This document shows positions 1 through 23,239 of a stretch of 30,373 nt of DNA, in pieces. Source of the stretch: Deltaproteobacteria bacterium (GTDB taxonomy: Bacteria; Myxococcota; UBA727; VGSZ01); NCBI GenBank assembly GCA_016177705.1, contig JACOUT010000005.1, positions 1 through 30,373 of the forward strand, given 5' to 3'. The notes under the pieces were generated by a model. The model ran no database searches. It was not told the DNA's origin and saw only the letters and a program-made list of their open reading frames with translations. The stretch's first letter is position 1, and the number at the start of each line of letters is the position of its first letter. A program made the position numbers and the translations under genes.

Positions 1-885
1 AGGGTCGGCGGCGCCGTCGCCGCCGGGACAGCCGCCCCGGCGGGAGCCGTCGACGACGCCGGCCGCGAGGCCCGCGCCGCCGCCCGCGCCGCCCGTGTCC
101 GGCGCGATGCCGCCTACCCCGCCGTCGAGGCCGTGGGCTCCTCCCCCTCCTCCGCCCGACTCGATCTGGCCGCCGCCGTCGGCACCTTCGAGGCCCACGC
201 CGCCGGCGCCGGCGCCGCACTCACCGGCGCTGCGCGCGCCGGCGCCGGCGCGCGCGCGTCGCGCGCTCGCGTCGAGCATGCCGTCGAGACGCGCGTCGCC
301 GAAGACCGCGATCACCACGGCCGCGCTACCGGTGAACTGCAGCGTCGCGCCTGCAGCGATGTCGAGCGAGTCGAGCGCCAGCACGAGCGCGCCGTCGGGG
401 CCGCGCTGCAGCGCGGATGCGCTGATGCCCACGAGGCAGCCGTCGAGCGTGGGCGCGTCGGTGTCGATGCCGGTGCTGCACACGACCGAGAGCGCGCCGC
501 CGGGAGCGAGCGCGTCGGGATCGAGGCCGAGCGGAGTGAACGGGAAGGTGGCGGGATCGCCCTCGCCCTCGCCCTCACCTTCTCCTTCTCCTTCTCCCTC
601 TCCTTCTCCTTCTCCTTCTCCTTCTCCTTCGCCTTCTCCTTCGCCTTCTCCTTCGCCTTCTCCTTCGCCTTCTCCTTCTCCTTCTCCTTCGCCCTCTCCC
701 TCTCCCTCGCCTTCGCCTTCGCTCGGGGATGCTTCGGCGGCGCAGACGCCCGCGTAGCAGTTGGCGCCCGGTGGGCACTCGTCGTCGGCGGTGCACGCCA
801 ACGCGGCCATGCCGACCAAGCGGCAGGCCGTGACCACGACCAGCAGCGTCACCACCAGCGCCGTCAGGCGCACACGCGAGCCCAC
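1..885 (-). CDS. Secreted lipoprotein, 3'-truncated by the window edge. It has a signal peptide with lipobox, a short Cys motif, an ~28x Glu-Gly acidic linker, then a Gly-rich and beta-strand-rich region.
   Basis: Hand translation of the minus strand in the frame antisense to the listed +133..1008 ORF gives MGSRVRLTALVVTLLVVVTAC-RLVGMAALAC-TADDECPPGANCYAGVCAAEASPS-(EG)n-DPATFPFTPLGLDPDALAPGGALSVVCSTGIDTDAPTLDGCLVG...GGGGGAHGLDGGVGG... The frame is open all the way to position 1, which is why no terminated minus ORF in this frame appears in the track. An in-frame TAG lies just upstream at 895-897. The start is GTG at 885, with an alternative GTG at 873 giving MRLTALVV.... It has a positively charged n-region, a hydrophobic core and a VTAC lipobox. 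Confidence 0.6.
   Translation of the reverse strand, partial: MGSRVRLTALVVTLLVVVTACRLVGMAALACTADDECPPGANCYAGVCAAEASPSEGEGEGEGEGEGEGEGEGEGEGEGEGEGEGEGEGEGEGEGEGEGEGEGEGEGEGDPATFPFTPLGLDPDALAPGGALSVVCSTGIDTDAPTLDGCLVGISASALQRGPDGALVLALDSLDIAAGATLQFTGSAAVVIAVFGDARLDGMLDASARRARAGAGARSAGECGAGAGGVGLEGADGGGQIESGGGGGGAHGLDGGVGGIAPDTGGAGGGAGLAAGVVDGSRRGGCPGGDGAADP
559..722. repeat. Imperfect hexanucleotide tandem repeat (CCTTCT / CCCTCG units on the plus strand, GAGGGC / GAAGGA on the minus strand). It codes the (Glu-Gly)n linker of the 1..885 lipoprotein.
   Basis: Directly visible run ccctcgccctcgccctcaccttctccttctccttctccctctccttctcc.... All three plus-strand frames and the other two minus frames give low-complexity SP, FS and poly-R ORFs in the track, which is typical of a coding microsatellite read in wrong frames. 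Confidence 0.9.
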
Positions 886-1114
886 TCGTTCAGGCTAGCA
901 GGTGCGCACGCCGCACACCGCGCTCCACAGGCCTTGCTCGATGGCGCGTCGACGTCCGAAGACCGCCAAGGCACAGCGCCGCCGCCGCCAGCCGTGTCAG
1001 GAAGTTGAGGCGAGCGGGGTCGCCATGCAGCGCCCGCGGCCGGTGCGGACGCGGCGCGGGCAGTCGGGCGTCGGTGGCACGCGCGGTGCTTCGCTGCGCC
1101 GCGGAGGTCGCACC

Positions 1115-2560
1115 ATGCCACGCACGCTCCTGCTGCTCGTCGTAGCCGCCGCCACCTGCATCGTCGCCGCGTGCAGCGTCGCGGGCCTCACCCCCATACC
1201 CCAGGCCGGGGCCACGCCCGGAGGCGTGCAAGACATGAGGCTCGCGCGCGACCTGATCGCGCACGGCCAGGTGCCGCCGCCGGAGGCGTTCGTCGTCGAG
1301 GGGATGTTCTCCGAGCACGACCTGCCGTTGGCAGGGGCGACGTGCGCGCAGGCCCTGTGCTTGCGGGCAGCGGGCGGCGTCGCGCCAAAGCACGACGGCG
1401 CGGCGCGCGGCTTCGTGCAGATCGGCATGTCGTCCGCCATCGACGCCGGCGCGTGGCAGCCGCCGCCGATGACGCTGGTGCTGACGGTCGACGTCTCGTC
1501 GTCGATGGGCTTCGAACAGGCCGACACCACGCCCGGCGAGATGAGCAGGGTGCTGCTCCGCCGAATCGCCGATCGCCTGCGCGATCAAGACCGCGTCGCC
1601 ATCGTCACCTATGGCACCACCACCACCACGGTGTTGCCCCTCACCAGCGCCACCGAGCGCGCGCGCATCTTGTCGACCATCGACGCGCTCACCACCGACG
1701 GCTCGACCAACATGGAGGCCGGCCTGCGCCTTGCCTATCAGACAGCGCCCAACGACGACGACGGCGACGGGGACGTGCGAGTGCTGCTGTTCACCGACAC
1801 GCAACCAAACGTCGGCGCAACGCAGCCAAGCGACTTCGAGGACATCGTGGCAGCCGGGGCCGCGCGCGGCGTGGGGCTGACCGTGTTCGGCATGGGCGTA
1901 GGCGTCGGCCAGGAGGTGTTCGCGGCCATGGCCAACTTCCGCGGCGGCAACGCGTTCGGCGTCATCGAGCCCGAGGACGTACCGCGCGTGCTCGACGACT
2001 CCTGGCCGTTCTTGCTGTCGCCCATCGCCAACGAGCTCGAGCTGGCGCTCACGCCGGACGGAGCGGCGACGGTCAGCGGCGCCTACGGCTTCCCCGGCAG
2101 CAGCGACGACGGCAGCGCCGGCCTGCGCGTGGAGAGCGTCTTCCTGTCAAAGCGACGCGGCGCGCTGCTGGTCGAGCTGCAGGGGCTCGCGCCCGGCTTC
2201 TCGGCCGCCGGCACGCTCCGCTACACGGTCCCGGGGGAGCCCGCGGAGGTGGAGCAGGGCATCCACGTCGAGCACGACGGCACCGTCGACGAGCGCGGAC
2301 ACGCGTACCAGCAGCCGTCGGTGGCCAAGACCGTGGCGCTGGCGCTCCTGGTCACCGGCATGCGCGAGGCCGCGCAGCGCTACCAGGACGGCGAGGCCGA
2401 CGCTGCCATCGCCGGCATGGAGGTGGTCGCTGCGCGCGTCGCGGAGGACGCCGGCGCCATCGACGACCCGGCGCTGGCGCCCGAGGTGGCGCTCGCTGAG
2501 GCGATGCTCGAGCTGCTGCGCGCCGGCGCGCCGCAGGGCAGCCTCTACGGCGGCTACTGA
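1115..2560 (+). CDS. Von Willebrand factor type A (VWA) domain lipoprotein with an intact MIDAS motif.
   Basis: This is an internal ATG of the listed 902..2560 ORF, preceded by GGAGG 7 nt upstream. The N-terminus MPRTLLLLVVAAATCIVAAC is a signal peptide with an IVAAC lipobox. The MIDAS motif D-x-S-x-S is present in TLVLTVDVSSSMG. Downstream TDG-like motifs occur in TTDGSTNMEAGL and VLLFTDTQPN. The upstream 71 codons of the ORF are Arg/Pro-rich and non-coding in character. Confidence 0.8.
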   Translation: MPRTLLLLVVAAATCIVAACSVAGLTPIPQAGATPGGVQDMRLARDLIAHGQVPPPEAFVVEGMFSEHDLPLAGATCAQALCLRAAGGVAPKHDGAARGFVQIGMSSAIDAGAWQPPPMTLVLTVDVSSSMGFEQADTTPGEMSRVLLRRIADRLRDQDRVAIVTYGTTTTTVLPLTSATERARILSTIDALTTDGSTNMEAGLRLAYQTAPNDDDGDGDVRVLLFTDTQPNVGATQPSDFEDIVAAGAARGVGLTVFGMGVGVGQEVFAAMANFRGGNAFGVIEPEDVPRVLDDSWPFLLSPIANELELALTPDGAATVSGAYGFPGSSDDGSAGLRVESVFLSKRRGALLVELQGLAPGFSAAGTLRYTVPGEPAEVEQGIHVEHDGTVDERGHAYQQPSVAKTVALALLVTGMREAAQRYQDGEADAAIAGMEVVAARVAEDAGAIDDPALAPEVALAEAMLELLRAGAPQGSLYGGY

Positions 2561-2578
2561 TCACGCAGGCGTCCCCGC

Positions 2579-3988
2579 TCACCCGCTGAGCGGCACGCAG
2601 GTGCCGTCTGCGCACACCAGCGGGGCGCAGCAGTCGAGCGACGACGCGCACGCGCCGCATGCGCCGTCGACGCAGGCCTGGTTGCCGCAGTCCTCGCAGC
2701 TCCCGCAGCCGGGGGCCGGCGGCTCACCGTCGTCGCCGCCCGGGTCGCTGCCCGGATCATCGCCGCCGCCGCCGCTCGGATCGCCCGCGGGCTCGCCGTC
2801 GTCGACCGGCATGCCGGTCTCGTCGCAGGAGCCGGCGCCATCTTGCACGCTCTCGTCCCAACCGACGTGAACCACGCCGGCCTCGACCAGCTCGCGCACC
2901 AAGAGCGCGCCTTCGACGTCGAGGGGGCCGGCGGCGATCAGGCGCGCGTTCGGCGCCCACAGGTTGCCTTGAAAGTCGAGATCGCCCGCGAGCAGGATGT
3001 CCTCGGCGCCCGCGACGTAGGTGCGCACCTTGGCGGGCGGCCCGCCCTCCACGCCCATCTCGAAGTCACCGGATACGAGCAGGCTGCCGCCGACGAACAC
3101 GTCCAGCTCACCACCGCCCTGCACGTCGATCTCGAAGACGCTGACGCTCTCGAGGTCGCCGCCGACATAGAGCGCGGTCGGCCCGGTCACCGTCAGCCAC
3201 AGGGGCGCGACCGCGCTGATGCGGTCGACGTAGTAGCGACCGGGAGGCAGCGTCAGCTCCTTCGGCTGCAAGAGGCCGATGAGCGCGTCGCGCGTCAGGC
3301 CGATGGCGTCGTTGTCGTTGTGCTGCTCCGCGTCGGCGATGAAGCCGTTGACGTCGAGCCGATCGCCGGGATCGCACGGGCAGGGCAGGTCCACCGTGAC
3401 CGGCGTGTTGACCACGGTCGCCGCGGTGGTGCCGAGGCCCACCGACGACGAGGCGGGGATGTGCAACGTGCCGACCACGTCGGTGACGAAGCCGCGCAGG
3501 TCGCCGCCGACCCAGGCATCGGCGCCGACGTCGATGTCACCCGCCGAGGTGACGTCGCCCTGGGTGTACAGCTCACCGCCGATCTCGTGATTGCCGATGG
3601 GCAAGGCGCTGCCGCCCACCGCGAGCGAGCCGGCGATGGCACTGTCGCCCGTCGACGTGAAGCTGCCGTTGGTGCCGGCGCTGCCGCCCTCTACCGGCTG
3701 CGAGGGATCGACGCGGAAGGCGTCGACGCGCAGCACCGTCGAGAACGCCAGGTCCTCGCAGGTGCACAGCCCGAAGCGGAAGGTGGTGGCGGCGAGGTCG
3801 GCGCCGCACACGGCGGCGTTCGGCGTCACGCCGACCACGCCGGGCGGGGCGGCGCCGAGGTCGTCGGGCACGTCGCGCGTCGGCGGCGGCACCGCGCCCG
3901 GCGGCGTGCACGCGGCCGCGAACGCGTAGGCCGCGAGCAACGTGGCGTGTGCGGTTCCTGCGATAGGGATGGTGCGGGTGCGCGGCAT
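2579..3988 (-). CDS. Secreted lipoprotein with beta-helix-type G-D-x-x-V/G-G-x-L repeats (bactofilin/DUF4097-like appearance) and a C-terminal cysteine-rich knot.
   Basis: This is an internal ATG of the listed 2579..4021 ORF with the SD-like GAAGAGG upstream. MPRTRTIPIAGTAHATLLAAYAFAAAC is a signal peptide with lipobox. The body contains repeats such as ALYVGGDLESVSVFEIDVQGGGELDVFVGGSLLVSGDFEMGVEGG. The C-terminus is CGSCEDCGNQACVDGACGACASSLDCCAPLVCADGTCVPLSG, with 11 Cys in 40 aa. Its stop is only 18 bp from the VWA gene stop, a convergent arrangement. Confidence 0.75.
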   Translation of the reverse strand: MPRTRTIPIAGTAHATLLAAYAFAAACTPPGAVPPPTRDVPDDLGAAPPGVVGVTPNAAVCGADLAATTFRFGLCTCEDLAFSTVLRVDAFRVDPSQPVEGGSAGTNGSFTSTGDSAIAGSLAVGGSALPIGNHEIGGELYTQGDVTSAGDIDVGADAWVGGDLRGFVTDVVGTLHIPASSSVGLGTTAATVVNTPVTVDLPCPCDPGDRLDVNGFIADAEQHNDNDAIGLTRDALIGLLQPKELTLPPGRYYVDRISAVAPLWLTVTGPTALYVGGDLESVSVFEIDVQGGGELDVFVGGSLLVSGDFEMGVEGGPPAKVRTYVAGAEDILLAGDLDFQGNLWAPNARLIAAGPLDVEGALLVRELVEAGVVHVGWDESVQDGAGSCDETGMPVDDGEPAGDPSGGGGDDPGSDPGGDDGEPPAPGCGSCEDCGNQACVDGACGACASSLDCCAPLVCADGTCVPLSG

Positions 3989-4099
3989 GGTGACCTCTTC
4001 GTCCTCGAGCGCGCACTCCACAGCACTGCGCGTCGCCTGGCGATCGGGCGCTCGTCCCTCGCGTCGCGATCGGACGCGACACGCGCACGCGACGTCGGC

Positions 4100-4816
4100 T
4101 CAACGTCCGATGGGCTCGTCGGCGAAGGCGAAGACGGCGGCCTGCCGCCGCCCCGTCACGCGCCGCCCGGGCGCGGGGCGCACCACCCCGTCGTCGAGCA
4201 AGTGGCGGAAACGGCGCCGGAAATTGCCGGGGTCCGCGGCGCGGCCGCGCACGGCGTCGACCGCGGCGCGCAGCTCGGCGACGCTGAAGGCGGCCGGGAC
4301 CAGCGCGCGCGCCAGCGGGGTCACGTCGACGTCGCGGCGCAGGCGGTCGAGCGCGCAGCGCGCGATCTCGGCGTGATCGAAGGCGAGCGGCACCTCGCGC
4401 AGCTCTGCGACGCGATACCAGGCGACCGCGGCTGCATCGGAGCCGGCGCGCACGAACGCCGCCAGCTCGGGCGGCACCACCGCGAGATAGGCGACCGCGA
4501 TGACGCGCGCGCGCGGGTCTCGATCGGGTGCGCCGAACACGCCCACCTGCACGAGCGGCAACGCGCCCGTCCCCTGTTGCGGCAGCGGCAGGCGGGTCTC
4601 GTCCAAAAGCTCGCGGCGTGCCGCCTGCTCGAGGTCCTCGCCCTGATCGCGCGCGACGTCGCCGCAGCGCACGAAGCCGCCGGGCAACGCGAGCGCGCGC
4701 GGTGGCAGGCCGCGCTGGATCAACAGCACCTTGAGATCGGCGTCGAGCACGGTGAAGGCGGCGACGTCGACGGCCACCAACGGGCGCGGGTACTTGTCGT
4801 CGTTCGTCTCGGCCAC
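4100..4816 (-). CDS. NrtR-like regulator: an N-terminal Nudix-fold domain with a degenerate Nudix box plus a C-terminal winged-helix domain.
   Basis: PGGFVRCGDVARDQGEDLEQAARRELLDETRL resembles the Nudix signature G-x5-E-x7-R-E-U-x-E-E-x-G-U but lacks the Gly and one Glu. The C-terminus FSVAELRAAVDAVRGRAADPGNFRRRFRHLLDDGVV matches the NrtR-type winged-helix motif (...F..L...Y......D..NFRR...). Confidence 0.7.
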   Translation of the reverse strand: MAETNDDKYPRPLVAVDVAAFTVLDADLKVLLIQRGLPPRALALPGGFVRCGDVARDQGEDLEQAARRELLDETRLPLPQQGTGALPLVQVGVFGAPDRDPRARVIAVAYLAVVPPELAAFVRAGSDAAAVAWYRVAELREVPLAFDHAEIARCALDRLRRDVDVTPLARALVPAAFSVAELRAAVDAVRGRAADPGNFRRRFRHLLDDGVVRPAPGRRVTGRRQAAVFAFADEPIGR

Positions 4817-6261: not shown

Positions 6262-6630
6262 ATGACCAGCCGACGAGCGGCACCGGCAAGTTCTCTGCTG
6301 GCGACGGCCGCGCTGGCGACGCTCGGCGCGCTGGCGCTCGCGTGCCCGGTCGGCGAGGTGCGCGTGCCGGGCGGCCAGGACATGGGCGAGGAGTGCTTCG
6401 ACGACGAGGAGTGCGACGATCCGGGCACCTGCCTGAACGGCGTGTGCTCGGGCTATCCGTGCGACGAGGGCGGTGGCTGCAAGAACGACCTGGTGTGCGA
6501 GCCGGTAAGCGACCAGGCGAGCTGTGTCATGCCCTGCTCGGACACCGACGACTGCCTGGCGCGCCAGGAGTGCGTCGAGGTGCCGCGCTCGTCGGGAAAT
6601 CCGGACGACACCATTACGGTCTGCTTGTAG
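6262..6630 (+). CDS. Small cysteine-rich lipoprotein of 122 aa with 12 Cys in the mature part. Resembles the Myxococcus cysteine-rich repeat (EECDDG core).
   Basis: The ATG at 6262 lies 4 nt after the GNAT stop, with a strong SD AAGGAGTG 6 nt upstream. MTSRRAAPASSLLATAALATLGALALAC is a signal peptide with lipobox. It is followed by CFDDEECDDPGTCLNGVCSGYPCDEGGGCKNDLVCEPVSDQASCVMPCSDTDDCLARQECVEV. This is the in-frame tail of the listed 6028..6630 ORF. Confidence 0.7.
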   Translation: MTSRRAAPASSLLATAALATLGALALACPVGEVRVPGGQDMGEECFDDEECDDPGTCLNGVCSGYPCDEGGGCKNDLVCEPVSDQASCVMPCSDTDDCLARQECVEVPRSSGNPDDTITVCL

Positions 6631-7806: not shown

Positions 7807-9282
7807 TCATTGTGGGAGCGGGAACACCGAGGCCCAGTTGTCGTAGCGCGACTGGATGTCGCTCACGTACTTGACCGGCTCGCTGCCGCGGCAATAGCCG
7901 TGCGGCATGCGGCGCGCGACCTTGGGATCCTCGAGGCGCAGCATCGCCTTCTCGACGTTGCCGAACCACTTGTTCGGGTCGAGGCCCATCTCCTTCGCGA
8001 GCGCGCGCGCGTCGGCGACGTGGTGCGGGCCGGCGTTGTAGGAGGCGAGCGCGAAGCGCACGCGGTGCTTGAAGGGCAGCTCCGGCTCGAAGCCGGCGAT
8101 GAGCTGCGCCATGTACTTGATGCCGGCGTGCACGTTCTTCTCGGGGGGCCGCACGTCGTGAAAGCCGAGCGCGCGCCCGGTCTTGGGCATCACCTGGAAC
8201 AAGCCGAGCGCGCCGCACCAGCTCTCGGCGTGCTCGTCGAAGAAGCTCTCCTGGTAGGCCTGCGCGGCCATCAGGCGCCAGTCGATGCCGTAGCGCGCCG
8301 CGTACTTCTTGATGAGCGGATCCCACTTGGAGATGGCGCCGGTGGCGCGCACGTCGTGCTGCGCGGGCGCGTTCTTGCTGGGGCGCGCGAAGTACTTCCG
8401 GTGCAGGCGCGCGATGGTGCCCGGGTTCGAGCGAACGAAGGCATCGAGCGCGGCGCGCAGCTCGGGGTTGCTCGGCCGTGTCGCGCAGGCGACCGGCACG
8501 GCGCGCTCGAGCACCAGCGTGGCGACGGCGCCCTTGGTGGCGGCCAGCTCGACGGCGGCGATGGTGCTGTCGGCGACGGTGAGCGGGATGGCGCCGCTCG
8601 CCACCTGCGCGATCAGCTCCTCGGTCTCCACGTCCTCGGGGGCGTCGACCAGCGTGAACCCATGCTGCGCCGCCAGCGGCTCGAGCCGTGCGCGGTACGA
8701 CGACGAGCGGCGCACGTGGACGCTCCGCCCGGCCAGCTCGGCGACGGTGCGCACCGGCGGCTGCCCGGCGGGCTGCACCAGCACCTCGTCGACGGCGAGG
8801 TAGGGCTTGGAGAACGCGACGCGCGCGCTGCGCTCCGGTGTCACGCTCATGCCGGCCGCGATGACGTCGGCGCGACCCTCGAGCAGCCACGGGATGAGGT
8901 CGCTCGCCTGCTCGGGCACCACGGTGTCGACGCGCAGCTTGTGCTTGGCGGCGAAGGCCTTGATGACCTCGAAGTCGAAGCCCTGCTGGACGCCCTTGTA
9001 GAGGAAGAAGCTGGTGGCGTTGTTGCGCACGAGCACGCGGATCGAGCCGCGGCGCTTGAGGTCGGCCAGGTCGCCCGTCGACAGCTCGTCCTTGTGGGCG
9101 GTGAGCGCCGCCTCCATGGCGCCGGCCTCGTCCTCGATGGCGACCTGCGCTTCGGGCGGCGCCGTTGGAGCCACCTGCGCGATCTCGGGATCCGAAGGCT
9201 CGGCGGCGCTCGCGGCAGTGGCCAGGCAGGCGCCGAACAGCGCCCACGACGAAAGCGGCGATTGCCGGCGGCGCGTTCTCAT
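7807..9282 (-). CDS. mltF: Membrane-bound lytic murein transglycosylase F. It has an N-terminal family-3 solute-binding-like domain and a C-terminal SLT lysozyme-like domain.
   Basis: This is an internal ATG of the listed 7807..9405 ORF giving MRTRRRQSPLSSWALFGACLATAASAAEP as signal peptide. The SBP_bac_3-like region is LKRRGSIRVLVRNNATSFFLYKGVQQGFDFEVIKAFAAKHKLRVDTV. The SLT catalytic region is AYQESFFDEHAESWCGALGLFQVMPKTG...YNAG. Confidence 0.85.
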   Translation of the reverse strand: MRTRRRQSPLSSWALFGACLATAASAAEPSDPEIAQVAPTAPPEAQVAIEDEAGAMEAALTAHKDELSTGDLADLKRRGSIRVLVRNNATSFFLYKGVQQGFDFEVIKAFAAKHKLRVDTVVPEQASDLIPWLLEGRADVIAAGMSVTPERSARVAFSKPYLAVDEVLVQPAGQPPVRTVAELAGRSVHVRRSSSYRARLEPLAAQHGFTLVDAPEDVETEELIAQVASGAIPLTVADSTIAAVELAATKGAVATLVLERAVPVACATRPSNPELRAALDAFVRSNPGTIARLHRKYFARPSKNAPAQHDVRATGAISKWDPLIKKYAARYGIDWRLMAAQAYQESFFDEHAESWCGALGLFQVMPKTGRALGFHDVRPPEKNVHAGIKYMAQLIAGFEPELPFKHRVRFALASYNAGPHHVADARALAKEMGLDPNKWFGNVEKAMLRLEDPKVARRMPHGYCRGSEPVKYVSDIQSRYDNWASVFPLPQ

Positions 9283-9389
9283 GGCGCGCAGTCTAGCGCG
9301 GGTCCGCCTCCGCGCCCTGCGAGACCGCACCGGCGTTCCGGCCTCCGCCGCGCCGACAGGATTGGCGGCATGGCTGCTACCGTAGCCGG

Positions 9390-9848
9390 ATGGGCGGTGC
9401 CGCAAAGCCCGGCGACCAGGACGCGCTCGTGACGCGGGAGCCGACGCAGCCCGCAGGGACGGGCCGCGCCGTGACCGCGCGGCGTGGCCGCACCGCCGAT
9501 CAGCTCGACGTCGACGACATCTTGGACGTGCTGCGGCGCCGCAGCCGGCTGTATTTGTACGTCACGCTCGGCAGCGCGCCGCTCGCCGCGGGCCTCGCCG
9601 CCACGCTGTTTCTCGCCGGCATCGACGGCTATCGCGTGGTCGTCGCCGTGGTCGGTGTGCTTCTGGGCACCTACGCGGTCGCGCGCGCGAGCCGGCGCCG
9701 CATGATGCTCGAGCTCGACGTCGATGAAGGTGTGCTCGCGCTCATCGAGCGGGCCGAGCGTGCCCTCAACACGCGCCGCATGCGGCGCATCGATCGCGCC
9801 TATGCAGAAGAAGTGCTCGCTCGCGTGCGAGAGTCGTGGCGCACCTGA
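9390..9848 (+). CDS. Hypothetical small membrane protein with two predicted TM helices.
   Basis: It has high GC3, a hydrophobic stretch LYLYVTLGSAPLAAGLAATLFLAGIDGYRVVVAVVGVLLGTYAV, and a charged C-terminus. It is divergent from mltF with a ~107 bp spacer. There is no recognisable family. Confidence 0.45.
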   Translation: MGGAAKPGDQDALVTREPTQPAGTGRAVTARRGRTADQLDVDDILDVLRRRSRLYLYVTLGSAPLAAGLAATLFLAGIDGYRVVVAVVGVLLGTYAVARASRRRMMLELDVDEGVLALIERAERALNTRRMRRIDRAYAEEVLARVRESWRT

Positions 9849-9869: not shown

Positions 9870-11453
9870 TCACGGCGCTCGATCGGTGGCGCTGAGGGGC
9901 TGACCGAGCGCTGCGGGCGGCGTCAGCGCCGCCAACGCGCGCAACGCCTCGACCAACGCCGGCGCCATCCCCGGCCCTATCGAGTTCTGCTCACCGTACT
10001 GGCCCTCCGGGTCGTAGGCGAACGGCTCGTCGACGTCCCACTGGGGCGCCGGGATGATGTAGCCGAGCGCGTCGCCGGCGTTGTTCAGCACCACGCGCAC
10101 CGGTGCTTCGCGCACCAGGCCGGAGTAGGCGGGCTCGGGCTCGGCGTCGGGAAGATCGCCACCCTCGGGGCGCTCGACGAAGGACGTGCCGTCCTCCTTG
10201 GCCAGCCACAGCTCGCTGTACAGCTCGCCCGGCATGCCGGTCAGCTCGACGTCGCCGAGCGAGAGCGACGACACCTCGCTGCCGATGCGGATCTTGCCCG
10301 CGATGACGTCGTCGATGGAGAGGAACTCGAGCTGGTCGTCGGGGATGCGCTCGCCCTGCTCGTCCCAGACCGCGCGTCGGATCATGCCGAGCTGGAAGGC
10401 GAGCGCCAGCGGCGTGTTGGTCGGCGTCAGGAAGGTGCCGAGGCGGCGGAAGGCGAGCGCGCCGTCGACGAGGGGCGCGTCCAGCACCGACTCGGCAGCG
10501 ATCTGCCCCACCTCGCGGCCGATGCGCTCGGCGCGCTCGAAGGTCCCCTGGGGACAGGTCTCTGCGCCGGCGTCGTCGGGGCACACGGTCAACCCGATGG
10601 TGGTGGTGAGGCCGCCGAGCAGTCCGGGCGCGAAGATGGCGACGGTGCCCGGCAGGCGCGCCTCCACCTCCTCGCGCAGGAAGTGCGGGTAGTCGCTGGT
10701 CAAAAGCGTGTTGTCGGAGCCGAGCGCCTCGGGGTGGTTGCCCCACACGACCAGCGTGGCGCGCGAGCCGCCCTGCTCGTCGACGAAGTCGAGCGCGGTC
10801 ACGGTCGGATCGAGCACGATCGGTTGGCGGCTGTCGCGCACCCAGGGCGAAGCGTCGCCGCGCCCGACCCGCAGCGACACCGGCACCAGCGCCGCGCGCG
10901 CCTCGGCCAGCGCCGCCACCGACTCGTCGACCAGGCGCTGCATGTAGGTGGGGTCGATGCCGGTTGCGCCCACGCTCGAGCCCCACATGCCCATGGTGTC
11001 CTTGGCCTCGTGCACGTGCGTGGTGGCGACGACGATGGTGTCGAGCTCGAGGCCGGCGTCGAGCGTGGCGCTGCGGAGCCGCTGCACCTCGTCGTGAAAC
11101 AGCCCGACCAGATCGAGCACCACCAGGCCGACGGCGGTGTCGCCGCGCTCGAGAACGAGCGCGCGCGCCCATTGGTCGTCGTGCACGCCGGTCGCTTGGC
11201 GGCCGATGTCGAAGCCGGCCATCCACACCGGCGGGTCGTTCTCGCCGACCGGCGGCGTGATGGTGCGGGCGGCGGCGCCGGCCAGGAGCAGGCCGTCGGC
11301 GTGCGCGCAGCCGACGGCGCCCGGGCACACCAGCGCCGTTGTCAGGCCACGCGCATCGACGATCACCGAGGTGTCCATCACGGCCGGCGGCGGCTGGCTC
11401 TCGGGGCAGCCCGCGACGACGACGGCGGTGACGGCGATCGATAGCAGGCGCAT
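9870..11453 (-). CDS. Lipoprotein resembling the neutral/alkaline ceramidase N-terminal domain family.
   Basis: This is an internal ATG of the listed 9870..11558 ORF. MRLLSIAVTAVVVAGC is a signal peptide with lipobox. ARTITPPVGENDPPVWMAGFDIGRQATGVHDDQWARALVLERGDTAVGLVVLDLVG and TTHVHEAKDT follow the pattern of ceramidase-N-like hydrolases. The family call is from memory of the motif pattern only. Confidence 0.6.
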   Translation of the reverse strand: MRLLSIAVTAVVVAGCPESQPPPAVMDTSVIVDARGLTTALVCPGAVGCAHADGLLLAGAAARTITPPVGENDPPVWMAGFDIGRQATGVHDDQWARALVLERGDTAVGLVVLDLVGLFHDEVQRLRSATLDAGLELDTIVVATTHVHEAKDTMGMWGSSVGATGIDPTYMQRLVDESVAALAEARAALVPVSLRVGRGDASPWVRDSRQPIVLDPTVTALDFVDEQGGSRATLVVWGNHPEALGSDNTLLTSDYPHFLREEVEARLPGTVAIFAPGLLGGLTTTIGLTVCPDDAGAETCPQGTFERAERIGREVGQIAAESVLDAPLVDGALAFRRLGTFLTPTNTPLALAFQLGMIRRAVWDEQGERIPDDQLEFLSIDDVIAGKIRIGSEVSSLSLGDVELTGMPGELYSELWLAKEDGTSFVERPEGGDLPDAEPEPAYSGLVREAPVRVVLNNAGDALGYIIPAPQWDVDEPFAYDPEGQYGEQNSIGPGMAPALVEALRALAALTPPAALGQPLSATDRAP

Positions 11454-11499
11454 CGCGCCCAGGATGCCGCAGCGTGTGCGGTGTGCAAGGCGGTGCGAC

Positions 11500-12969
11500 T
11501 CACCACTGCGGCGTCGGCACCTCGTCGACGCAGCCGAGTTCGAGCACCGCAGGGTCATGGTCGCCGAGCAGGAACTGCTCGATCAGCTCGGCGCCGCAGG
11601 GCGTGATCATCACGCTATGCGTCGCGTGCGGCAGCACCACGTGGCGAGCGTTCGCCAGCGTCTCGAGGGCGTGCTCCGCCATCTCGGGCGGCGTCTGGAT
11701 GTCGGCGGCGCCGCTCAACAACAAGGTGGGGACGTCGCTGACCACGGGCGCGCGCAGCGCGGCATCGAGCGGCGGCGCGTCGAGCGCCGCACAGGCCTCG
11801 GCGATCTCGAGCAGGTGGCCGTCACCCCAGGAGAGTCCATCGGCGAGGTCGCGCAGCGCATCGAGGCCGCCCGCGTTCGGCAGCGACTCGGTGCAGGTGA
11901 CGTACAGGTACAAGCCCGGCGCGACGTAGGAGGCGTTCAAGTCCGCGCGGTCGCTGATGGTGACGCCGAACAGGTCGCCGAGCAGCGCGTTCCAACCGTC
12001 GTTGTCTCCGCTCACGGCGGCATGCACGGCCCGCGGTACGTCGGAGCGCCAGTAGGAGTCTTCCACCAGATACGACAGCGCCAGCACGAACAGCGCGTCG
12101 TCCTCGACGTCGGGCGCGCCGCCGGCGGTGATACGCCGTGGCTCCTCGGCGAGCGCGGCGCGGCGGGCCTCGAGATCGGCGCGCAGGTCGGGGCTGACCG
12201 CGACGCACGCAGGGTCGGCGGCGCAGTCATCGATCAACAGCTCGATGCCGACGTCGGCCTTGCCGAGCGTCCAGCCAAAGAAGTCGGCGTCCGGCGGATC
12301 GACGCCGTCGAGCACGGCCGCCTCCACCACGGCGCCGTGTTGCCGCAGCACCTCGAGGCCGACGCGGGTGCCGTAGGAGCCGCCGCGTAACGCGATGGTC
12401 GGGTAGCCGAGCGCGCGGCGAACCCGGTCGACGTCGTGCGCGGCCTCGACGCTGCCGAGCCCGCGCACGTCACCGAGCGCGCGAAGGCAGGCTTCGTTGC
12501 CGGCGCGATCCTGCGGGAAGTCGCCGTCGGGGCAATCGAGGTAGCCGGAGAAGCCGGTCCCTCGTTGGTCGACGTAGACCAGATCGAGATCGTCGCGCAG
12601 CCCGCCGAGCAACTGCGGCACCAGGCCGCTCTGTGTCACCGCCGAGCCACCCGGCCCGCCGGCGAGCTGGAACACCGCGCGGCCGGTGGGGAAGGCGCGC
12701 GAGCGCTGGCGAGCGACGAAGATGGTGGTGGTGCCCGCGTCGGGATCGCCGAGCACGCGTTGCACCTCGAGCGTGCCGCACTCGAGGTCCGAGGGTGGGT
12801 TCGGCATGGCGCTCGGCCACGCGGCGAAGTCGCAGGCGCCGAGCGCCAGCTCGCCGATCGGATCTGCGACATCGTCACTACCCTCGTCGATGGGGTCGGG
12901 CGGCGCGGCGCTCGGTAGGCACGAGAGCGCGTACAGAGGTGTTAGGGCAGCGAACAACGTTGAGCGCAT
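11500..12969 (-). CDS. Alpha/beta-hydrolase lipoprotein, S33 prolyl or tripeptidyl aminopeptidase-like.
   Basis: The nucleophile elbow is GGSYG in IALRGGSYGTRVGLE. LAGGPGGS is upstream. The signal peptide MRSTLFAALTPLYALSC has an LSC lipobox, with an alternative ATG 7 codons upstream at 12990. It lies 46 bp upstream of the ceramidase-like gene on the same strand. Confidence 0.75.
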   Translation of the reverse strand: MRSTLFAALTPLYALSCLPSAAPPDPIDEGSDDVADPIGELALGACDFAAWPSAMPNPPSDLECGTLEVQRVLGDPDAGTTTIFVARQRSRAFPTGRAVFQLAGGPGGSAVTQSGLVPQLLGGLRDDLDLVYVDQRGTGFSGYLDCPDGDFPQDRAGNEACLRALGDVRGLGSVEAAHDVDRVRRALGYPTIALRGGSYGTRVGLEVLRQHGAVVEAAVLDGVDPPDADFFGWTLGKADVGIELLIDDCAADPACVAVSPDLRADLEARRAALAEEPRRITAGGAPDVEDDALFVLALSYLVEDSYWRSDVPRAVHAAVSGDNDGWNALLGDLFGVTISDRADLNASYVAPGLYLYVTCTESLPNAGGLDALRDLADGLSWGDGHLLEIAEACAALDAPPLDAALRAPVVSDVPTLLLSGAADIQTPPEMAEHALETLANARHVVLPHATHSVMITPCGAELIEQFLLGDHDPAVLELGCVDEVPTPQW

Positions 12970-14321: not shown

Positions 14322-15772
14322 GCGCGGCTCCGCGCTCGTTCGCCGAGCGCGCTCAAGAGCTTGTCGTGAATGCCGCCAAAGCCGCCATTCGACATGCACA
14401 GCAACACCGCGCCGCGCGGCGCCTCCTTCACCACGTGGCGTACCAGCTCCTCGATGGACGCGCAGGCGGTGGCGGGACGCCCGCGCATGCCGACGTCGGC
14501 GGCCAGCTTGGCGACGTCGAGCGCGACGGTCGGGTCGAGCTGCCGCCCCGAGGGCGCCAGCAGCACGCGATCGGCCGCGTCGAAGGCGCGCGCGTAGTCG
14601 TCCTGAAAGATCTTGCGGCAGCTCGTCGCCGAGCGCGGTTCGAACAGCGCCCACAAGGGCCGCCCGGCGAAGCGCTTCTTGGCGCCCTCGAGCGTGCTGC
14701 GCACCGCGGTGGGGTGGTGCGCGAAGTCGTCGACCACCAGGCAGGCGTCCGCCTCGCCGCGCTGCTCGAGGCGACGCTTGACGCCGGGGAAGCTCTCGAA
14801 GCCGAGCGCGATCTCGTCGTGCGTCAGCCCGAGGCCGGCGAGCACCGCGTAGGCGCCGAGCGCGTTCAGCAGGTTGTGGCGGCCCGACAGCGGCAGGAAG
14901 ATCTCGCCCTCGTCGCCGCCCATGGCCGACATCACGCCGGTGGTGTGCGCGCCGAACGACACCACGAAGCGCAGCCCGCGCTCGTCTTCCACGACGTCGT
15001 GCGCGTCGTAGCTGCCGCCCGCGCCGTAGCTGGTGACGCGCGCCTTGACCGAGGCCTGCGCGCGCGCCTTCATCAGGTTGCGCTCCTCGGCGCACAAGAC
15101 GATGTGTCCGTCCGCCGGCACCAGGCTCAACAGCTCGGCGAAGCGGGCGATGATGGCGTCGACGCTCGGGTAGATGTCGGCGTGGTCGTACTCGAGCGAG
15201 GTGCACAGGAGCGAGCGCGGTCGGTAGTGGAGGAACTTCGGTCCCTTGTCGAAGTAGGCGGTGTCGTACTCGTCGCCCTCGACGACGAAGGGCGAGCGCT
15301 TGCCGGGCGCGCCCAGCCGAAACGACTCGCCGCCCGAGCCGTCGGCGTTGAGCGGGATGCCGCCGACCAGGAAGCCCGGATCGCGCTTGGTCTTCATCAG
15401 CGTGTGCGCGATCAACGTCGCCGTGGTGGTCTTGCCGTGCGTGCCGGCCACCACCACGCTGTTGCGCTCGGCCAAAAACAGCTTGCCGAGCGTCTCGGGG
15501 AACGAGGCTTGCGCCAGGCCCCGCTCGCGCGCGGCGGTCGCCTCCGGGTTGTCCCTCCGGATCACGTTGCCGACGACGGTCAAGTCGGGCGCCGGCTCGA
15601 GGTTGGTTGCAGCGTAGGGCGTCTTCGCGTCGATGCCCCACTCGCGCAGCTTGTCGCTCATCGGCGGATAGACGTTCTCGTCCGAGCCGCCGACCTGGTA
15701 GCCGGCCTGCCGCAACAGCCCGGCAAAGGCGCCCATGCCGGTCCCGGCCACGCCGATCAGATGGATGCGCAT
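14318..15772 (-). CDS. mpl: UDP-N-acetylmuramate:L-alanyl-gamma-D-glutamyl-meso-diaminopimelate ligase (murein peptide ligase).
   Basis: It is collinear with E. coli Mpl along its length: MRIHLIGVAGTGMGAFAGLL, YPPMSDKL, VVAGTHGKTTT (P-loop), VVEGDEYDTAYFDKGPKF, LEYDHADI, DDFAHHPTA, MSNGGFGGIHDKLL. Confidence 0.85.
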   Translation of the reverse strand: MRIHLIGVAGTGMGAFAGLLRQAGYQVGGSDENVYPPMSDKLREWGIDAKTPYAATNLEPAPDLTVVGNVIRRDNPEATAARERGLAQASFPETLGKLFLAERNSVVVAGTHGKTTTATLIAHTLMKTKRDPGFLVGGIPLNADGSGGESFRLGAPGKRSPFVVEGDEYDTAYFDKGPKFLHYRPRSLLCTSLEYDHADIYPSVDAIIARFAELLSLVPADGHIVLCAEERNLMKARAQASVKARVTSYGAGGSYDAHDVVEDERGLRFVVSFGAHTTGVMSAMGGDEGEIFLPLSGRHNLLNALGAYAVLAGLGLTHDEIALGFESFPGVKRRLEQRGEADACLVVDDFAHHPTAVRSTLEGAKKRFAGRPLWALFEPRSATSCRKIFQDDYARAFDAADRVLLAPSGRQLDPTVALDVAKLAADVGMRGRPATACASIEELVRHVVKEAPRGAVLLCMSNGGFGGIHDKLLSALGERARSRA

Positions 15773-15785
15773 GGCGCCAGATACC

Positions 15786-16283
15786 TCAGCGCCGGCTCGC
15801 CTTGAACTGCCCGTCGGTGAACGAGAGGTTCCCCGAGCCGTCGCTCAGATCGACCGCGAAGCGCCCGAGCAGCACGCCCCCCTGCTCGTCGATGATGGCG
15901 ACGGCGCCCGTGTGATCGGCGTTCGACTGGAAGGCGCCGCCGTTCAAAAGCGCGCTGCCGCGGGTCTCGCTGCGCTCCGCGAGCCTGACGCAGATTGGGA
16001 AAGCGCCGTCGGCGATGAGCTGCTCGGTGTCGGTGCCGGTCTCATCCTTGGCGATGATCATGTCGAGCAGCCCGATGGTGACGCTGCCGCTCGAGCCCGG
16101 CGCCCAGGAGGCGTCCTGCCCCGTGAAGTCGTCGCCGTCGGAGCGCGTCGCCTCGCCGGTTCCGTCGGCGACGTCGGGCGCGGCGGTCGAGATGCCGCAC
16201 ACCTCGCTCGGGAACACGGGGCAGCCCGCCGCCCCGACCAGGGCGGCGAGCGGGGCGATGGCCGTCATCCATGGGCTATGCAT
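15786..16283 (-). CDS. Small hypothetical lipoprotein of ~160 aa.
   Basis: MHSPWMTAIAPLAALVGAAGC has an AAGC lipobox. It has high GC3 and balanced composition (D, E, K, F, I). There is an alternative ATG at 16268. It lies 14 bp upstream of the mpl start on the same strand. Confidence 0.55.
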   Translation of the reverse strand: MHSPWMTAIAPLAALVGAAGCPVFPSEVCGISTAAPDVADGTGEATRSDGDDFTGQDASWAPGSSGSVTIGLLDMIIAKDETGTDTEQLIADGAFPICVRLAERSETRGSALLNGGAFQSNADHTGAVAIIDEQGGVLLGRFAVDLSDGSGNLSFTDGQFKASRR

Positions 16284-16377
16284 CGGCGCAGTCTGGTGAG
16301 AATCCCGCCGACGTCAAGCCCCGGAAGATCCGCGGGGCGCCTTGACGACCACCCCCCAAGTGACGACAACCACGCTG

Positions 16378-16674
16378 ATGGTCTCGCTGCTGCTCCTGTT
16401 GTGCGCCGCCGCCCCCGATTGGGCGGCGTGGCTCGAGGACGCCGCGGCCACCATCGCCCCCCTCGAGGACGTCGATGCGGCCGCCAGCGAAGCGACCGCG
16501 GTGGCACAGCGGGCCGGCACCAGCGCCGCCGCCGTTCTGCCACCGGTCGGTCGGCTCCGGCCGCCGGCGCCGCGCGTCTGCGAGGTGCCGTCCGTCCAGC
16601 CGACCGACGTGCCGCGCCCGCCGACGGTGCTGGGCGAGGGCGGGGCGACGGCGCGCGGCCCACCGCGCCGCTAG
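16378..16674 (+). CDS. Possible small secreted or leader ORF upstream of secA (speculative).
   Basis: This is an internal ATG of the listed 16342..16674 ORF giving MVSLLLLLCAAAPDWAAWLEDAAATIAPLEDVDAAASEATAVAQRAG.... It has a hydrophobic N-terminus and high GC3. There is no family support, and it could be a chance ORF in the GC-rich divergent promoter region. Confidence 0.25.
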   Translation: MVSLLLLLCAAAPDWAAWLEDAAATIAPLEDVDAAASEATAVAQRAGTSAAAVLPPVGRLRPPAPRVCEVPSVQPTDVPRPPTVLGEGGATARGPPRR

Positions 16675-16754
16675 CGCCGCTCCCTTCGCCGGCGCGCACC
16701 GTTCGTGCGCCGCGCGCACATCCCGCCCTCCCCCTCTCGAGCAGCGAGCTCCCC

Positions 16755-19943
<3,189 letters not shown>

Positions 19944-20148: not shown

Positions 20149-23238
<3,090 letters not shown>

Positions 23239-23239
23239 C

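What the first reader, a model, noticed from the sequence alone, without database searches (positions are those of the whole stretch)
1..3988. Three-gene cluster of surface/secreted lipoproteins (EG-linker Gly-rich protein, VWA MIDAS lipoprotein, beta-helix lipoprotein with Cys knot): a candidate uncharacterised adhesion or surface complex
Three consecutive genes each encode a lipobox lipoprotein with an interaction-type domain. The first (1..885, -) has an acidic (EG)28 spacer plus a Gly-rich beta region. The second (1115..2560, +) is a VWA domain with a complete D-x-S-x-S MIDAS motif, i.e. a metal-dependent ligand-binding site. The third (2579..3988, -) is a beta-helix repeat protein ending in an 11-Cys, 40-aa knot. 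A VWA lipoprotein flanked by repeat/beta-helix lipoproteins is reminiscent of myxobacterial surface adhesin modules such as the VWA adhesin lipoprotein used in gliding. None of the three has an obvious enzymatic signature. The divergent gene pair shares a 229-bp regulatory region (886..1114), and the convergent pair has stops only 18 bp apart.
Basis: partly seen in the sequence, partly recalled or inferred. Interest (0 to 1): 0.55.

Follow-up and report, generated by a model that had tools for sequence, protein, structure and literature searches.

The report
Three unlinked lipoprotein genes, side by side
Three neighbouring genes in an uncultured myxobacterium do encode adhesin-like surface lipoproteins, but they belong to three unrelated families that are not found together in other genomes, so they look like chance neighbours rather than a new surface complex.

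Summary
The sequence features are real. Three adjacent ORFs carry lipobox signal peptides. One has an (EG)27 spacer plus a Gly-rich domain. One is a VWA protein with a complete, family-invariant MIDAS motif. One is a beta-helix protein ending in a 10-Cys module.

- Family profiles searched against 41 independent loci of the VWA family found no gene-1 or gene-3 relative nearby. The VWA family has no conserved neighbour at all.
- Five distant gene-3 loci lack a VWA gene.
- Among ~80%-identical relatives, one of three keeps VWA next to gene 3, and none of the three shows gene 1.
- Seven of about 21 genes in the window carry a lipobox, so three in a row is not remarkable.

Gene 2 is a YfbK-like VWA lipoprotein with a VWA trunk, beta-sandwich and helical bundle (hhalign 99.5% to E. 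coli YfbK). It differs from CglB in architecture.

Gene 1 belongs to a large unnamed Gly-rich family.

One new point: a sigma-54-type promoter sits 40 nt upstream of the VWA start, and similar elements recur across the family. Overall these are ordinary new members of known but uncharacterised families.

The parts
1..885 (-). Gene 1, 5' part only (295 codons; the CDS continues beyond the left edge of the window). Lipoprotein of a large unnamed Gly-rich family.
   Evidence: Translation. The start is GTG 885, four codons after an in-frame stop. A family HMM built from 149 relatives hits this ORF at E 1.9e-62. There are 294 relatives at E<=1e-3 among 1.84 billion cluster representatives, about 40% identical over residues 5-184 of the query. 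No real match was found in Pfam, NCBIfam, PHROGs or the PDB.
823..885 (-). Gene 1 signal peptide and lipobox (VVTA-C21)
   Evidence: PS51257-like pattern and strict [LVI][ASTVI][GAS]C match.
742..795 (-). Gene 1 small 4-Cys module (C31, C37, C43, C48)
   Evidence: Cys positions. Only sub-threshold Pfam hints (Dickkopf_N, EB module), not significant. The same motif occurs in the relative P0164.
559..720 (-). Gene 1 (EG)27 acidic spacer
   Evidence: Regex on the translation. TRF finds period 6/12 at 557-720. The Pfam TrAA12, PARP and PHROG hits fall only on this low-complexity run.
1..558 (-). Gene 1 Gly-rich family domain (N-terminal about 186 residues of a domain that is about 330-350 residues in full-length relatives)
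   Evidence: phmmer alignments cover query residues 5-184. The A3 consensus shows the domain continuing about 170 residues further in relatives.
1075..1090 (+). Sigma-54-type -24/-12 promoter element TGGCACGCGCGGTGCT (GG-N10-GC), 40 nt upstream of the gene 2 ATG
   Evidence: It is the only match in the 30-kb window on either strand (0.13 expected). It is identical in the 80% relative L002, inside a conserved block of about 45 bp within an otherwise diverged intergenic region. Ten of 41 family loci carry TGGCAY-N5-NTGCH within about 500 nt around the VWA ORF start, against a background of 0.01 per 500 nt. In 7 loci it lies 40-66 nt upstream of the assigned start codon.
1115..2560 (+). Gene 2: YfbK-like VWA lipoprotein, 481 aa
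   Evidence: Pfam VWA_2 and VWA. More than 500 full-length homologues at about 50% identity. hhalign to E. coli YfbK gives probability 99.5%, E 2.8e-22, columns 49-328. AlphaFold2 pLDDT 90.2, pTM 0.87. Near-full-length Foldseek matches (373-429 alignment columns) to 4fx5, ArnA/ArnB (8s05), ITIH1 (6fpy) and Sec23/24.
1115..1174 (+). Gene 2 signal peptide and lipobox (IVAA-C20)
   Evidence: Pattern match. C20 is invariant in 48 homologues. Residues 18-25 are disordered in the model.
1469..2014 (+). Gene 2 VWA domain (residues about 119-300), including MIDAS DVSSS at 1490-1504
   Evidence: Pfam coordinates 121-273. Secondary structure. D126, S128, S130, T198 and D228 are invariant.
2021..2521 (+). 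Gene 2 C-terminal beta-sandwich (residues about 303-387) and three-helix bundle (residues about 401-469)
   Evidence: DSSP on the AlphaFold2 model. Foldseek alignments to ArnA/ArnB (8s05), ITIH1 and Sec23/24 span the trunk plus these domains.
2579..3988 (-). Gene 3: DUF7305 beta-helix lipoprotein, 469 aa
   Evidence: Pfam DUF7305 at E 4.8e-17, 62.9 bits against a cut-off of 27. 42 homologues; every source name given is Myxococcota or 'Deltaproteobacteria'. AlphaFold2 pLDDT 84.
3908..3988 (-). Gene 3 signal peptide and lipobox (FAAA-C27)
   Evidence: PS51257-like pattern met, strict lipobox not met. An N-terminal Cys occupies the same alignment region in most homologues.
3407..3769 (-). Gene 3 N-terminal beta-helix segment (residues about 74-194)
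2843..3352 (-). Gene 3 DUF7305 domain (residues 213-382), an ice-binding-protein-like beta-solenoid
2597..2707 (-). Gene 3 C-terminal 10-Cys module (residues 428-464), preceded by an acidic, Gly-rich and Pro-rich linker
   Evidence: Cys count. The motif CxxCxDCGNQACxxGxCGxCxxxxDCCAPLxCxxGxC is conserved in the family. There are only non-significant sequence hints to knottin peptides, E 0.09-0.8.

Best explanation
The region holds three adjacent genes for exported lipoproteins of an uncultured Myxococcota bacterium. They are evolutionarily independent and most likely functionally independent. Their adjacency is lineage-specific, not a conserved module.

Gene 2:
- It is a stand-alone YfbK-like VWA lipoprotein.
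- Inferred steps: it is exported by Sec, lipidated at Cys20, and, lacking a +2 Lys, sorted to the outer membrane.
- It hangs on a short disordered tether and presents a VWA trunk packed against a beta-sandwich and a three-helix bundle.
- Inferred: its invariant MIDAS holds a divalent cation whose coordination is completed by an acidic side chain of a still unknown ligand.
- It appears to be transcribed on its own from a sigma-54-type promoter, which would place it under an enhancer-binding protein.

Gene 3:
- It is a Myxococcota-restricted DUF7305 lipoprotein.
- It has a bactofilin-like beta-helix, an ice-binding-protein/ComZ/tapirin-like beta-solenoid, an acidic linker and a disulfide-rich end module.
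- This is a surface binding scaffold with no catalytic signature.
- It belongs to the conserved NUDIX-acetyltransferase-DUF6929 backbone of this lineage.

Gene 1:
- It is a lipoprotein whose Gly-rich domain is held away from the membrane by an (EG)27 spacer.
- This organism also uses such a spacer on another, unrelated lipoprotein.

Shown: the domain assignments, the family memberships, the lack of conserved linkage and the conserved promoter motif. Inferred: localisation, metal-dependent ligand binding and sigma-54 dependence.
For: No linkage:
- HMMs of the three families were searched against six-frame ORFs of all fetched loci. The gene-1 family was found only in the window. The gene-3 family was found only in the window, its Logan duplicate and the 80% relative, among 41 independent VWA loci with about 6 kb flanks.
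- Neighbour clustering around VWA genes gives no family shared by more than 3 of about 41 loci, even at E 1e-4.
- Distant gene-3 loci L006, L007, L008, L051 and L052 have no VWA gene within 8 kb.
- The about 80% relatives L049 and L050 keep NUDIX next to gene 3 but have a sulfatase or a TPMT gene in place of VWA.
- L002 keeps the VWA-gene 3 pair but has MerR upstream, and no gene-1 homologue anywhere in the 17.7-kb locus L002.
- The gene-1 and gene-3 families are unrelated (hhalign probability 2.5%).
- The lipobox pattern is present in 7 of about 21 window genes.
- A second lipobox-plus-(EG)n protein starts at 27580.

Gene 2 identity: (E. coli YfbK scores E 8e-35 against the family HMM).

Promoter.

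Gene 3 fold.

Sorting residues: +2 is R, S and T in genes 1, 2 and 3. Lys at +2 marks inner-membrane lipoproteins in M. xanthus (PMC3222651).
Against: - Absence of conserved synteny does not prove absence of interaction. A complex assembled recently in one lineage would look the same.
- The VWA-gene 3 pair is retained in one 80% relative, with stop codons only 18 bp apart here.
- Only neighbourhoods were tested, not whole-genome co-presence of the three families.
- The gene-1 side could not be tested from its own relatives. The word-index search was swamped by Gly-rich words, and the metagenome scan returned nothing.
- Lipoprotein status rests on a pattern match and conservation, not on a trained predictor.
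- The sigma-54 element has GTGCT rather than TTGCA/T at -12 and is untested.
- No ligand is known for any YfbK-like protein.
Confidence: 0.75

Rival explanations
1. A lineage-specific surface complex. The three lipoproteins were brought together recently and do work together. For example, the VWA MIDAS might bind an acidic segment of a neighbour, such as the (EG)27 spacer of gene 1 or the Asp/Glu-rich linker before the Cys module of gene 3.
For: All three are predicted to be exported and non-enzymatic, with binding-type folds. MIDAS sites bind carboxylates (general VWA knowledge; PMC9946355). Both neighbours carry long acidic linkers. The VWA-gene 3 pair is retained in L002.
Against: There is no co-occurrence outside one close relative. 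Gene 1 is absent from L002. The EG spacer also occurs on an unrelated lipoprotein 27 kb away, so it is a generic tether. The three genes lie on alternating strands and cannot form an operon. Only gene 2 has the sigma-54 element. The VWA family is conserved at about 50% identity across phyla that lack the other two families.
Confidence: 0.12
2. Gene 2 is a CglB-like gliding-motility adhesin that couples an Agl-Glt focal-adhesion machine to the substratum.
For: Like CglB, it is a lipoprotein with Cys20 in the lipobox, a VWA domain and a complete MIDAS, and it comes from Myxococcota (PMC9946355).
Against: CglB is 416 aa with MIDAS at D56/S58/S60, a beta-jellyroll domain and 17 Cys. Gene 2 has MIDAS at D126, only 4 Cys, and a beta-sandwich plus helical bundle of the YfbK/ITIH/ArnB/Sec23-24 type. 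The family is equally conserved in contigs from MAGs labelled Planctomycetota, Trueperaceae, Krumholzibacteriia and Fibrobacteraceae. No glt or agl-like genes are in the window. No CglB sequence was available for a direct comparison.
Confidence: 0.03
3. Gene 2 is the VWA partner of a multi-gene system of the BatA-D or MoxR AAA+/VWA type, and the flanking genes are its accessory components.
For: PDB sequence hits include BatB and an aerotolerance-related VWA protein (3ibs, 4jdu), and cobalt/magnesium chelatase VWA subunits score weakly.
Against: Those hits cover only the generic VWA core at E 1e-5 or worse. There is no AAA+ or MoxR, DUF58 or other Bat gene next to it here or in 41 other loci, and the family has no conserved neighbour.
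Confidence: 0.03

Closest known systems
E. coli YfbK / KEGG K07114 'Ca-activated chloride channel homolog' VWA proteins (IPR002035 + DUF3520)
   Same: Profile-profile homology of 99.5% probability over 270 columns. This covers the pre-VWA segment (ARDLIAHGQVPPPEAFVVEGMF aligned with vrrflnqgllpppdavrveeivnyf), the whole VWA domain and the start of the following beta-sandwich. E. coli YfbK scores E 8e-35 with the family HMM. JGI labels many family members K07114-style.
   Different: It is shorter (481 against 575 aa). Pfam vWF_A (PF12450) and DUF3520 (PF12034) are not detected at E<=0.1. The C-terminal three-helix bundle is not aligned to YfbK. YfbK itself has no established function: a literature search listed 29 papers, and none of the 15 listed titles is a functional study of YfbK; the papers were not read.
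Sec23/24 trunk-type VWA assemblies: archaeal ArnA/ArnB (PDB 8s05) and the ArnB paralog VWA2 (5a8j), human ITIH1 (6fpy), Catenulispora VWA protein (4fx5)
   Same: Near-full-length Foldseek alignments (373-429 columns, E 1e-12 to 3e-15). The shared layout is a VWA trunk plus beta-sandwich plus helical domain.
   Different: Sequence identity is only 11-15% and TM scores are 0.4-0.5. ArnA/ArnB and Sec23/24 are cytoplasmic, whereas this protein is a lipoprotein. ITIH proteins carry a VIT domain that is absent here.
CglB, the M. xanthus VWA gliding adhesin (PMC9946355)
   Same: Outer-membrane lipoprotein with lipobox Cys20, a VWA domain and a DxSxS...T...D MIDAS.
   Different: Different domain layout and Cys content (4 against 17). 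The taxonomic range goes far beyond gliding Myxococcota. There is no Glt context.
Ice-binding-protein (DUF3494) fold as used in adhesin-type proteins: IBPs (7bwx, 5uyt, 3wp9), Thermus ComZ (6qvi), Caldicellulosiruptor tapirins (6n2b, 4wa0); Pfam pAdhesive_15
   Different: Sequence identity is 11-18%. Foldseek E-values are only 7e-3 or worse. Gene 3 adds a lipobox, a bactofilin-like N-terminal beta-helix and a 10-Cys C-terminal module, and it has no pilin domain.

Membership tests
VWA domain (PF00092 / PF13519) - gene 2 | Pfam score above the gathering threshold | tested here: met
   VWA_2 scores 55.1 bits (cut-off 27). VWA scores 53.4 bits (cut-off 23.8).
VWA domain (PF00092 / PF13519) - gene 2 | Complete MIDAS DxSxS...T...D | tested here: met
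   D126, S128, S130, T198 and D228 are invariant in 48 sequences.
VWA domain (PF00092 / PF13519) - gene 2 | Alpha/beta Rossmann-like VWA fold | tested here: met
   AlphaFold2 pLDDT 90. Foldseek matches to many solved VWA structures at probability 1.00.
YfbK-like / K07114 - gene 2 | Homology to E. coli YfbK beyond the VWA core | tested here: met
   hhalign probability 99.5%, E 2.8e-22. Query columns 49-328 include the pre-VWA segment and the start of the post-VWA domain. YfbK scores E 8e-35 against the family HMM.
YfbK-like / K07114 - gene 2 | Pfam vWF_A (PF12450) and DUF3520 (PF12034) domains | tested here: not met
   Neither is listed at E<=0.1 in the Pfam scan or in the precomputed Pfam of 120 homologues. 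This points to a divergent subfamily.
CglB gliding adhesin - gene 2 | Cys-rich (17 Cys) VWA plus beta-jellyroll architecture, MIDAS near residue 56 | tested here: not met
   There are 4 Cys and MIDAS is at residue 126. The extra domains are a beta-sandwich and a helical bundle.
CglB gliding adhesin - gene 2 | Co-occurrence with the Agl-Glt machinery | tested here: inconclusive
   No glt or agl-like Pfam domains are in the window or in L002, L003 or L005. The family occurs in non-myxobacterial phyla. Whole genomes were not examined.
CglB gliding adhesin - gene 2 | Direct sequence similarity to M. xanthus CglB | not tested
DUF7305 (PF23981) - gene 3 | Pfam score above the gathering threshold | tested here: met
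   62.9 bits against a cut-off of 27, residues 213-382. All 42 homologues carry it.
pAdhesive_15 ice-binding-like adhesive domain (PF20597) - gene 3 | Pfam match and IBP-like beta-solenoid fold | tested here: inconclusive
Bacterial lipoprotein - all three genes | Signal peptide ending in a lipobox Cys (PROSITE PS51257 pattern) | tested here: met
   Pattern matches at C21, C20 and C27. The Cys is invariant in the VWA family.
Bacterial lipoprotein - all three genes | Formal SignalP or LipoP prediction, or experimental lipidation | not testable with these tools
Conserved gene cluster or operon - the trio | Co-occurrence of the three families in related and unrelated genomes | tested here: not met

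The most novel reading that the evidence does not exclude
The YfbK-like VWA lipoprotein family may be a stand-alone cell-surface receptor that is switched on by a sigma-54 enhancer-binding protein in Myxococcota and Bdellovibrionota-like lineages. It would reuse the Sec23/24-ArnB-type trunk, beta-sandwich and helical architecture outside the cytoplasm. In this lineage it may have recruited the two flanking acidic-linker lipoproteins as MIDAS ligands. That would give the first functional and regulatory handle on the uncharacterised YfbK family.
Probability: 0.07. Interest if true: 0.5.

Novelty: new member of a known kind. Interest (0 to 1): 0.2.

Why it matters
There is little at stake for the cluster itself, because it is not a new system.

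The useful outcomes are:
- The CglB-like-module idea can be dropped for this locus.
- Gene 2 is placed in the broad, uncharacterised YfbK-like VWA lipoprotein family. That family has a confident model, invariant MIDAS and lipobox residues, and no conserved genomic partner.
- A recurrent sigma-54-type promoter in front of family members gives a concrete regulatory hypothesis that could be tested in a cultivable myxobacterium.
- DUF7305 is tied structurally to the ice-binding-protein/ComZ/tapirin adhesin fold.
- A large unnamed Gly-rich lipoprotein family (gene 1) is flagged as lacking any profile in Pfam or NCBIfam.

Tried and rejected
- The word-index homologue search with the gene 1 C-terminal part returned nothing. 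The 8000 candidates were saturated by Gly-rich words. The exhaustive phmmer search solved this.
- A metagenome scan with the gene-1 family alignment used only a poly-Gly pattern and confirmed nothing. Neighbourhoods of gene-1 relatives therefore could not be examined.
- The afdb50 fold library was unavailable.
- The Pfam TrAA12, PARP and NCBIfam 'serine-rich' hits, and the PHROG hits of gene 1, all fall on the EG repeat. I rejected them as low-complexity artefacts.
- The Dickkopf_N and EB-module hints for the 4-Cys motif are below threshold.
- The knottin hints for the gene 3 Cys module are non-significant, E 0.09-0.8.
- Gene 1 and gene 3 as distant paralogues was rejected (hhalign probability 2.5%).
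- No sigma-70 promoter-like site was found in 700-4300. The two terminator-like hits there (0.7 expected) lie inside genes 2 and 3, and none lies in the 18-bp convergent gap.
- An apparent 344-residue N-terminal extension of SecA is an ORF-calling artefact. GC3 is about 0.65 before 16755 and at least 0.89 after it, and the real start is MSIFAKIFG at 16755.
- Literature searches found nothing for DUF7305 and turned up no paper focused on YfbK function among the titles listed.


Full report
**Observation**

The window is about 72% G+C. The same genes occur on a 7.9-kb Logan contig from run SRR12113422, so the source is metagenomic. The nearest named relative is 'Deltaproteobacteria bacterium RBG_16_71_12'.

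- **Gene 1 (1..885, minus strand)** is cut by the window edge, so only 295 residues are seen. Its GTG start lies four codons after an in-frame stop. It encodes a signal peptide with lipobox VVTA-C21, a 4-Cys motif, an uninterrupted (EG)27 run and a tail that is 26% Gly.
- **Gene 2 (1115..2560, plus strand)** has lipobox IVAA-C20 and a VWA domain. Its MIDAS residues are D126, S128, S130, T198 and D228.
- **Gene 3 (2579..3988, minus strand)** has lipobox FAAA-C27 and 17 Cys in total. Ten of them lie in the last 42 residues.

The gaps of 229 bp and 18 bp are correct. The numerical slips (27 rather than 28 EG units, 10 rather than 11 Cys) are trivial.

**Is a run of three lipoprotein genes remarkable?**

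No. Applying the same PS51257-like pattern to the likely genes of the window finds a lipobox in 7 of about 21. These include an SLT/SBP_bac_3 protein, a ceramidase-like protein, a 122-aa protein, and a large protein starting at 27580. That last protein also has a lipobox (VLAC) followed by an (EG)n spacer. The EG spacer is therefore a general tether used by this organism's lipoproteins. A gene-1 relative, P0164, also has one. It is not a mark of a special complex.

**Gene 2**

More than 500 full-length homologues at about 50% identity exist. They come from contigs of MAGs labelled Myxococcota or 'Deltaproteobacteria', and also Phycisphaerae/Planctomycetota, Trueperaceae, Krumholzibacteriia, Fibrobacteraceae, Eiseniibacteriota and Bdellovibrionales. 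In an alignment of 48, the lipobox Cys20, the five MIDAS residues and a Cys77/Cys82 pair are invariant.

The AlphaFold2 model is confident (pLDDT 90.2, pTM 0.87). It shows these elements in order:
- a disordered tether after Cys20;
- an N-terminal strand-rich segment;
- the VWA domain;
- a beta-sandwich (residues about 303-387);
- a three-helix bundle (residues about 401-469).

Foldseek aligns nearly the whole chain to the Catenulispora VWA protein 4fx5, archaeal ArnA/ArnB (8s05, described as a Sec23/24 core orthologue), ITIH1 and Sec23/24. Profile-profile comparison with E. coli YfbK gives 99.5% probability over 270 columns, including the characteristic pre-VWA segment. YfbK scores E 8e-35 against the family HMM. 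Pfam vWF_A and DUF3520 are nevertheless not detected. I therefore treat it as a divergent YfbK-like subfamily. A literature search listed 29 papers mentioning YfbK, and none of the 15 listed titles is a functional study of it; the papers were not read.

Gene 2 differs on each point that I could test.

**Gene 3**

Pfam DUF7305 is met clearly. The 42 homologues are all from Myxococcota-type MAGs wherever a source name is given. They share the N-terminal Cys and the C-terminal motif CxxCxDCGNQACxxGxCGxCxxxxDCCAPLxCxxGxC.

**Gene 1**

The visible domain has 294 relatives at E<=1e-3 in the exhaustive search, about 40% identical across residues 5-184. Full-length relatives are 350-800 aa. The domain continues about 170 residues past the point where the window ends. 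Some relatives have the same lipobox, Cys motif and EG-linker layout.

No Pfam, NCBIfam, PHROG or PDB sequence match exists apart from low-complexity artefacts. The family is not related to the gene-3 family.

**Are the three genes a module?**

- *From the VWA side.* 39 genome loci plus those from look-ups, 41 independent in all, with about 6-10 kb flanks, were translated in six frames and searched with HMMs of the three families. The gene-1 family hit only the window. The gene-3 family hit only the window, its Logan duplicate and L002.
- *Neighbour clustering.* All ORFs within 4 kb of VWA genes were clustered. No family is shared by more than 3 loci, even at E 1e-4. The VWA gene is a solo gene.
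- *From the gene-3 side.* Relatives at 56%, 49%, 44%, 36% and about 34% identity have no VWA gene within 8 kb.
- *Among close relatives.* The neighbouring genes in L049 follow the window's gene order (NUDIX, acetyltransferase, DUF6929, SLT, ceramidase). L050, cut by its contig end, retains NUDIX. Both have a sulfatase or a TPMT gene where the VWA gene sits here. L002 keeps the VWA-gene 3 pair but has MerR instead of gene 1, and no gene-1 homologue anywhere in the 17.7-kb locus L002.

Gene 3 therefore belongs to the conserved backbone. The gene 3/VWA junction is a synteny breakpoint, and gene 1 is unique to this contig. The three genes lie on alternating strands, so they cannot be one operon.

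**An extra finding**

The about 45 bp immediately upstream of the gene 2 ATG are almost identical between the window and L002, although the rest of the intergenic region has diverged. This block contains TGGCACGCGCGGTGCT (1075-1090). That is a GG-N10-GC sigma-54-type -24/-12 element, 40 nt before the ATG and followed by GGAGG.

- It is the only match to TGGCAC-N6-TGCW in the window on either strand, with 0.13 expected.
- Across 41 family loci, 10 carry TGGYAY-N5-NTGCH around the start of the VWA ORF, against a background of 0.01 per 500 nt.
- Where a start codon could be assigned, the element lies 40-66 nt upstream. Most are canonical TTGCT and the spacers all differ.
- All of these loci are of the 'delta'/Myxococcota/Bdellovibrionales type.

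This supports independent, enhancer-binding-protein-dependent transcription of the VWA gene. Neither neighbour has such an element.

**Mechanism, with status**

Shown by computation:
- the domain composition and predicted folds;
- the invariant MIDAS and lipobox;
- homology to YfbK;
- the lack of conserved partners;
- the conserved promoter motif.

Inferred from established knowledge:
- Sec/Lgt/LspA processing at the lipobox Cys.
- Outer-membrane sorting, because +2 is S, T or R rather than Lys. Lys at +2 characterises M. xanthus inner-membrane lipoproteins (PMC3222651). Gene 1 has Ala at +7, the position linked there to matrix export, but that is weak evidence.
- Binding of a ligand carboxylate through the MIDAS cation, by analogy with integrin I-domains and the CglB D56A result.
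- Sigma-54 dependence.

Unknown: the ligands and biological roles of all three proteins.

**Verdict**

The three-gene surface complex is not supported. These are new members of three separate, uncharacterised but already catalogued or widespread families that happen to be adjacent in one lineage. Interest is low (0.2). The sigma-54 link of the YfbK-like family and the unnamed Gly-rich family are the only leads worth keeping.

Noticed in passing
window 1075-1090 (+): A sigma-54-type -24/-12 element, TGGCACGCGCGGTGCT, lies 40 nt upstream of the VWA start codon. It is identical in the 80% relative L002. Similar elements lie 40-66 nt upstream of VWA-family genes in several other Myxococcota- and Bdellovibrionales-type loci (L010, L020, L021, L023, L040).
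   Followed up: yes
window 27580-30373 (+): A second lipoprotein (lipobox VLAC) carries an (EG)n spacer right after the lipidated Cys. It is followed by more than 900 residues with no Pfam match, and the gene runs off the right edge of the window. This shows that the EG spacer is a generic tether in this organism.
   Followed up: partly
window, whole: Seven of about 21 likely genes carry a PS51257-like lipobox. Besides the three genes of the finding, these are 6262-6630, the SLT/SBP_bac_3 protein at 7807-9405, the ceramidase-like protein at 9870-11558, and the protein starting at 27580.
   Followed up: partly
L049 8001-11819 and L050 955-3234: In about 80%-identical relatives of gene 3, NUDIX stays next to gene 3, and L049 keeps the longer NUDIX-acetyltransferase-DUF6929 run. 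The VWA position is occupied by a sulfatase (L049) or a TPMT gene (L050). The gene 3/VWA junction is a synteny breakpoint.
   Followed up: yes
L008 6440-9527 and L052 6428-9374: In two loci (L052 labelled Sandaracinus sp., L008 Myxococcales), the DUF7305 gene is directly preceded on the same strand by an ECF sigma factor gene and a TPR protein gene. This suggests a possible ECF-controlled operon in that lineage.
   Followed up: no
window 15735-19943 (+): The longest SecA ORF has a 340-residue N-terminal extension that is not coding. GC3 is about 0.65 there, against at least 0.89 after 16755. The real SecA start is ATG 16755 (MSIFAKIFG...). The P-loop domain carries an insertion of about 100 residues relative to the Pfam model.
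   Followed up: partly
window 20149-25968 (-): An RND efflux set: an AcrB-type pump at 20152-23310 and an OEP outer-membrane factor at 24481-25968. The gap between them presumably encodes the membrane-fusion protein.
   Followed up: no
L002 4245-5540 (-): An ORF not called in the public annotation of the RBG_16_71_12 contig gives a weak hit to the VWA-family HMM (E 1e-10). It lies just beyond the MerR gene upstream of the VWA gene and may be a second, divergent VWA gene.
   Followed up: no
window 2579-3988 (-), residues 389-427: Gene 3 has an Asp/Gly/Pro-rich acidic linker (low pLDDT) between the beta-solenoid and the Cys module. Several distant homologues instead carry extra Cys-rich repeats at the N- or C-terminus (P0151, P0156, P0159, P0160).
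   Followed up: no
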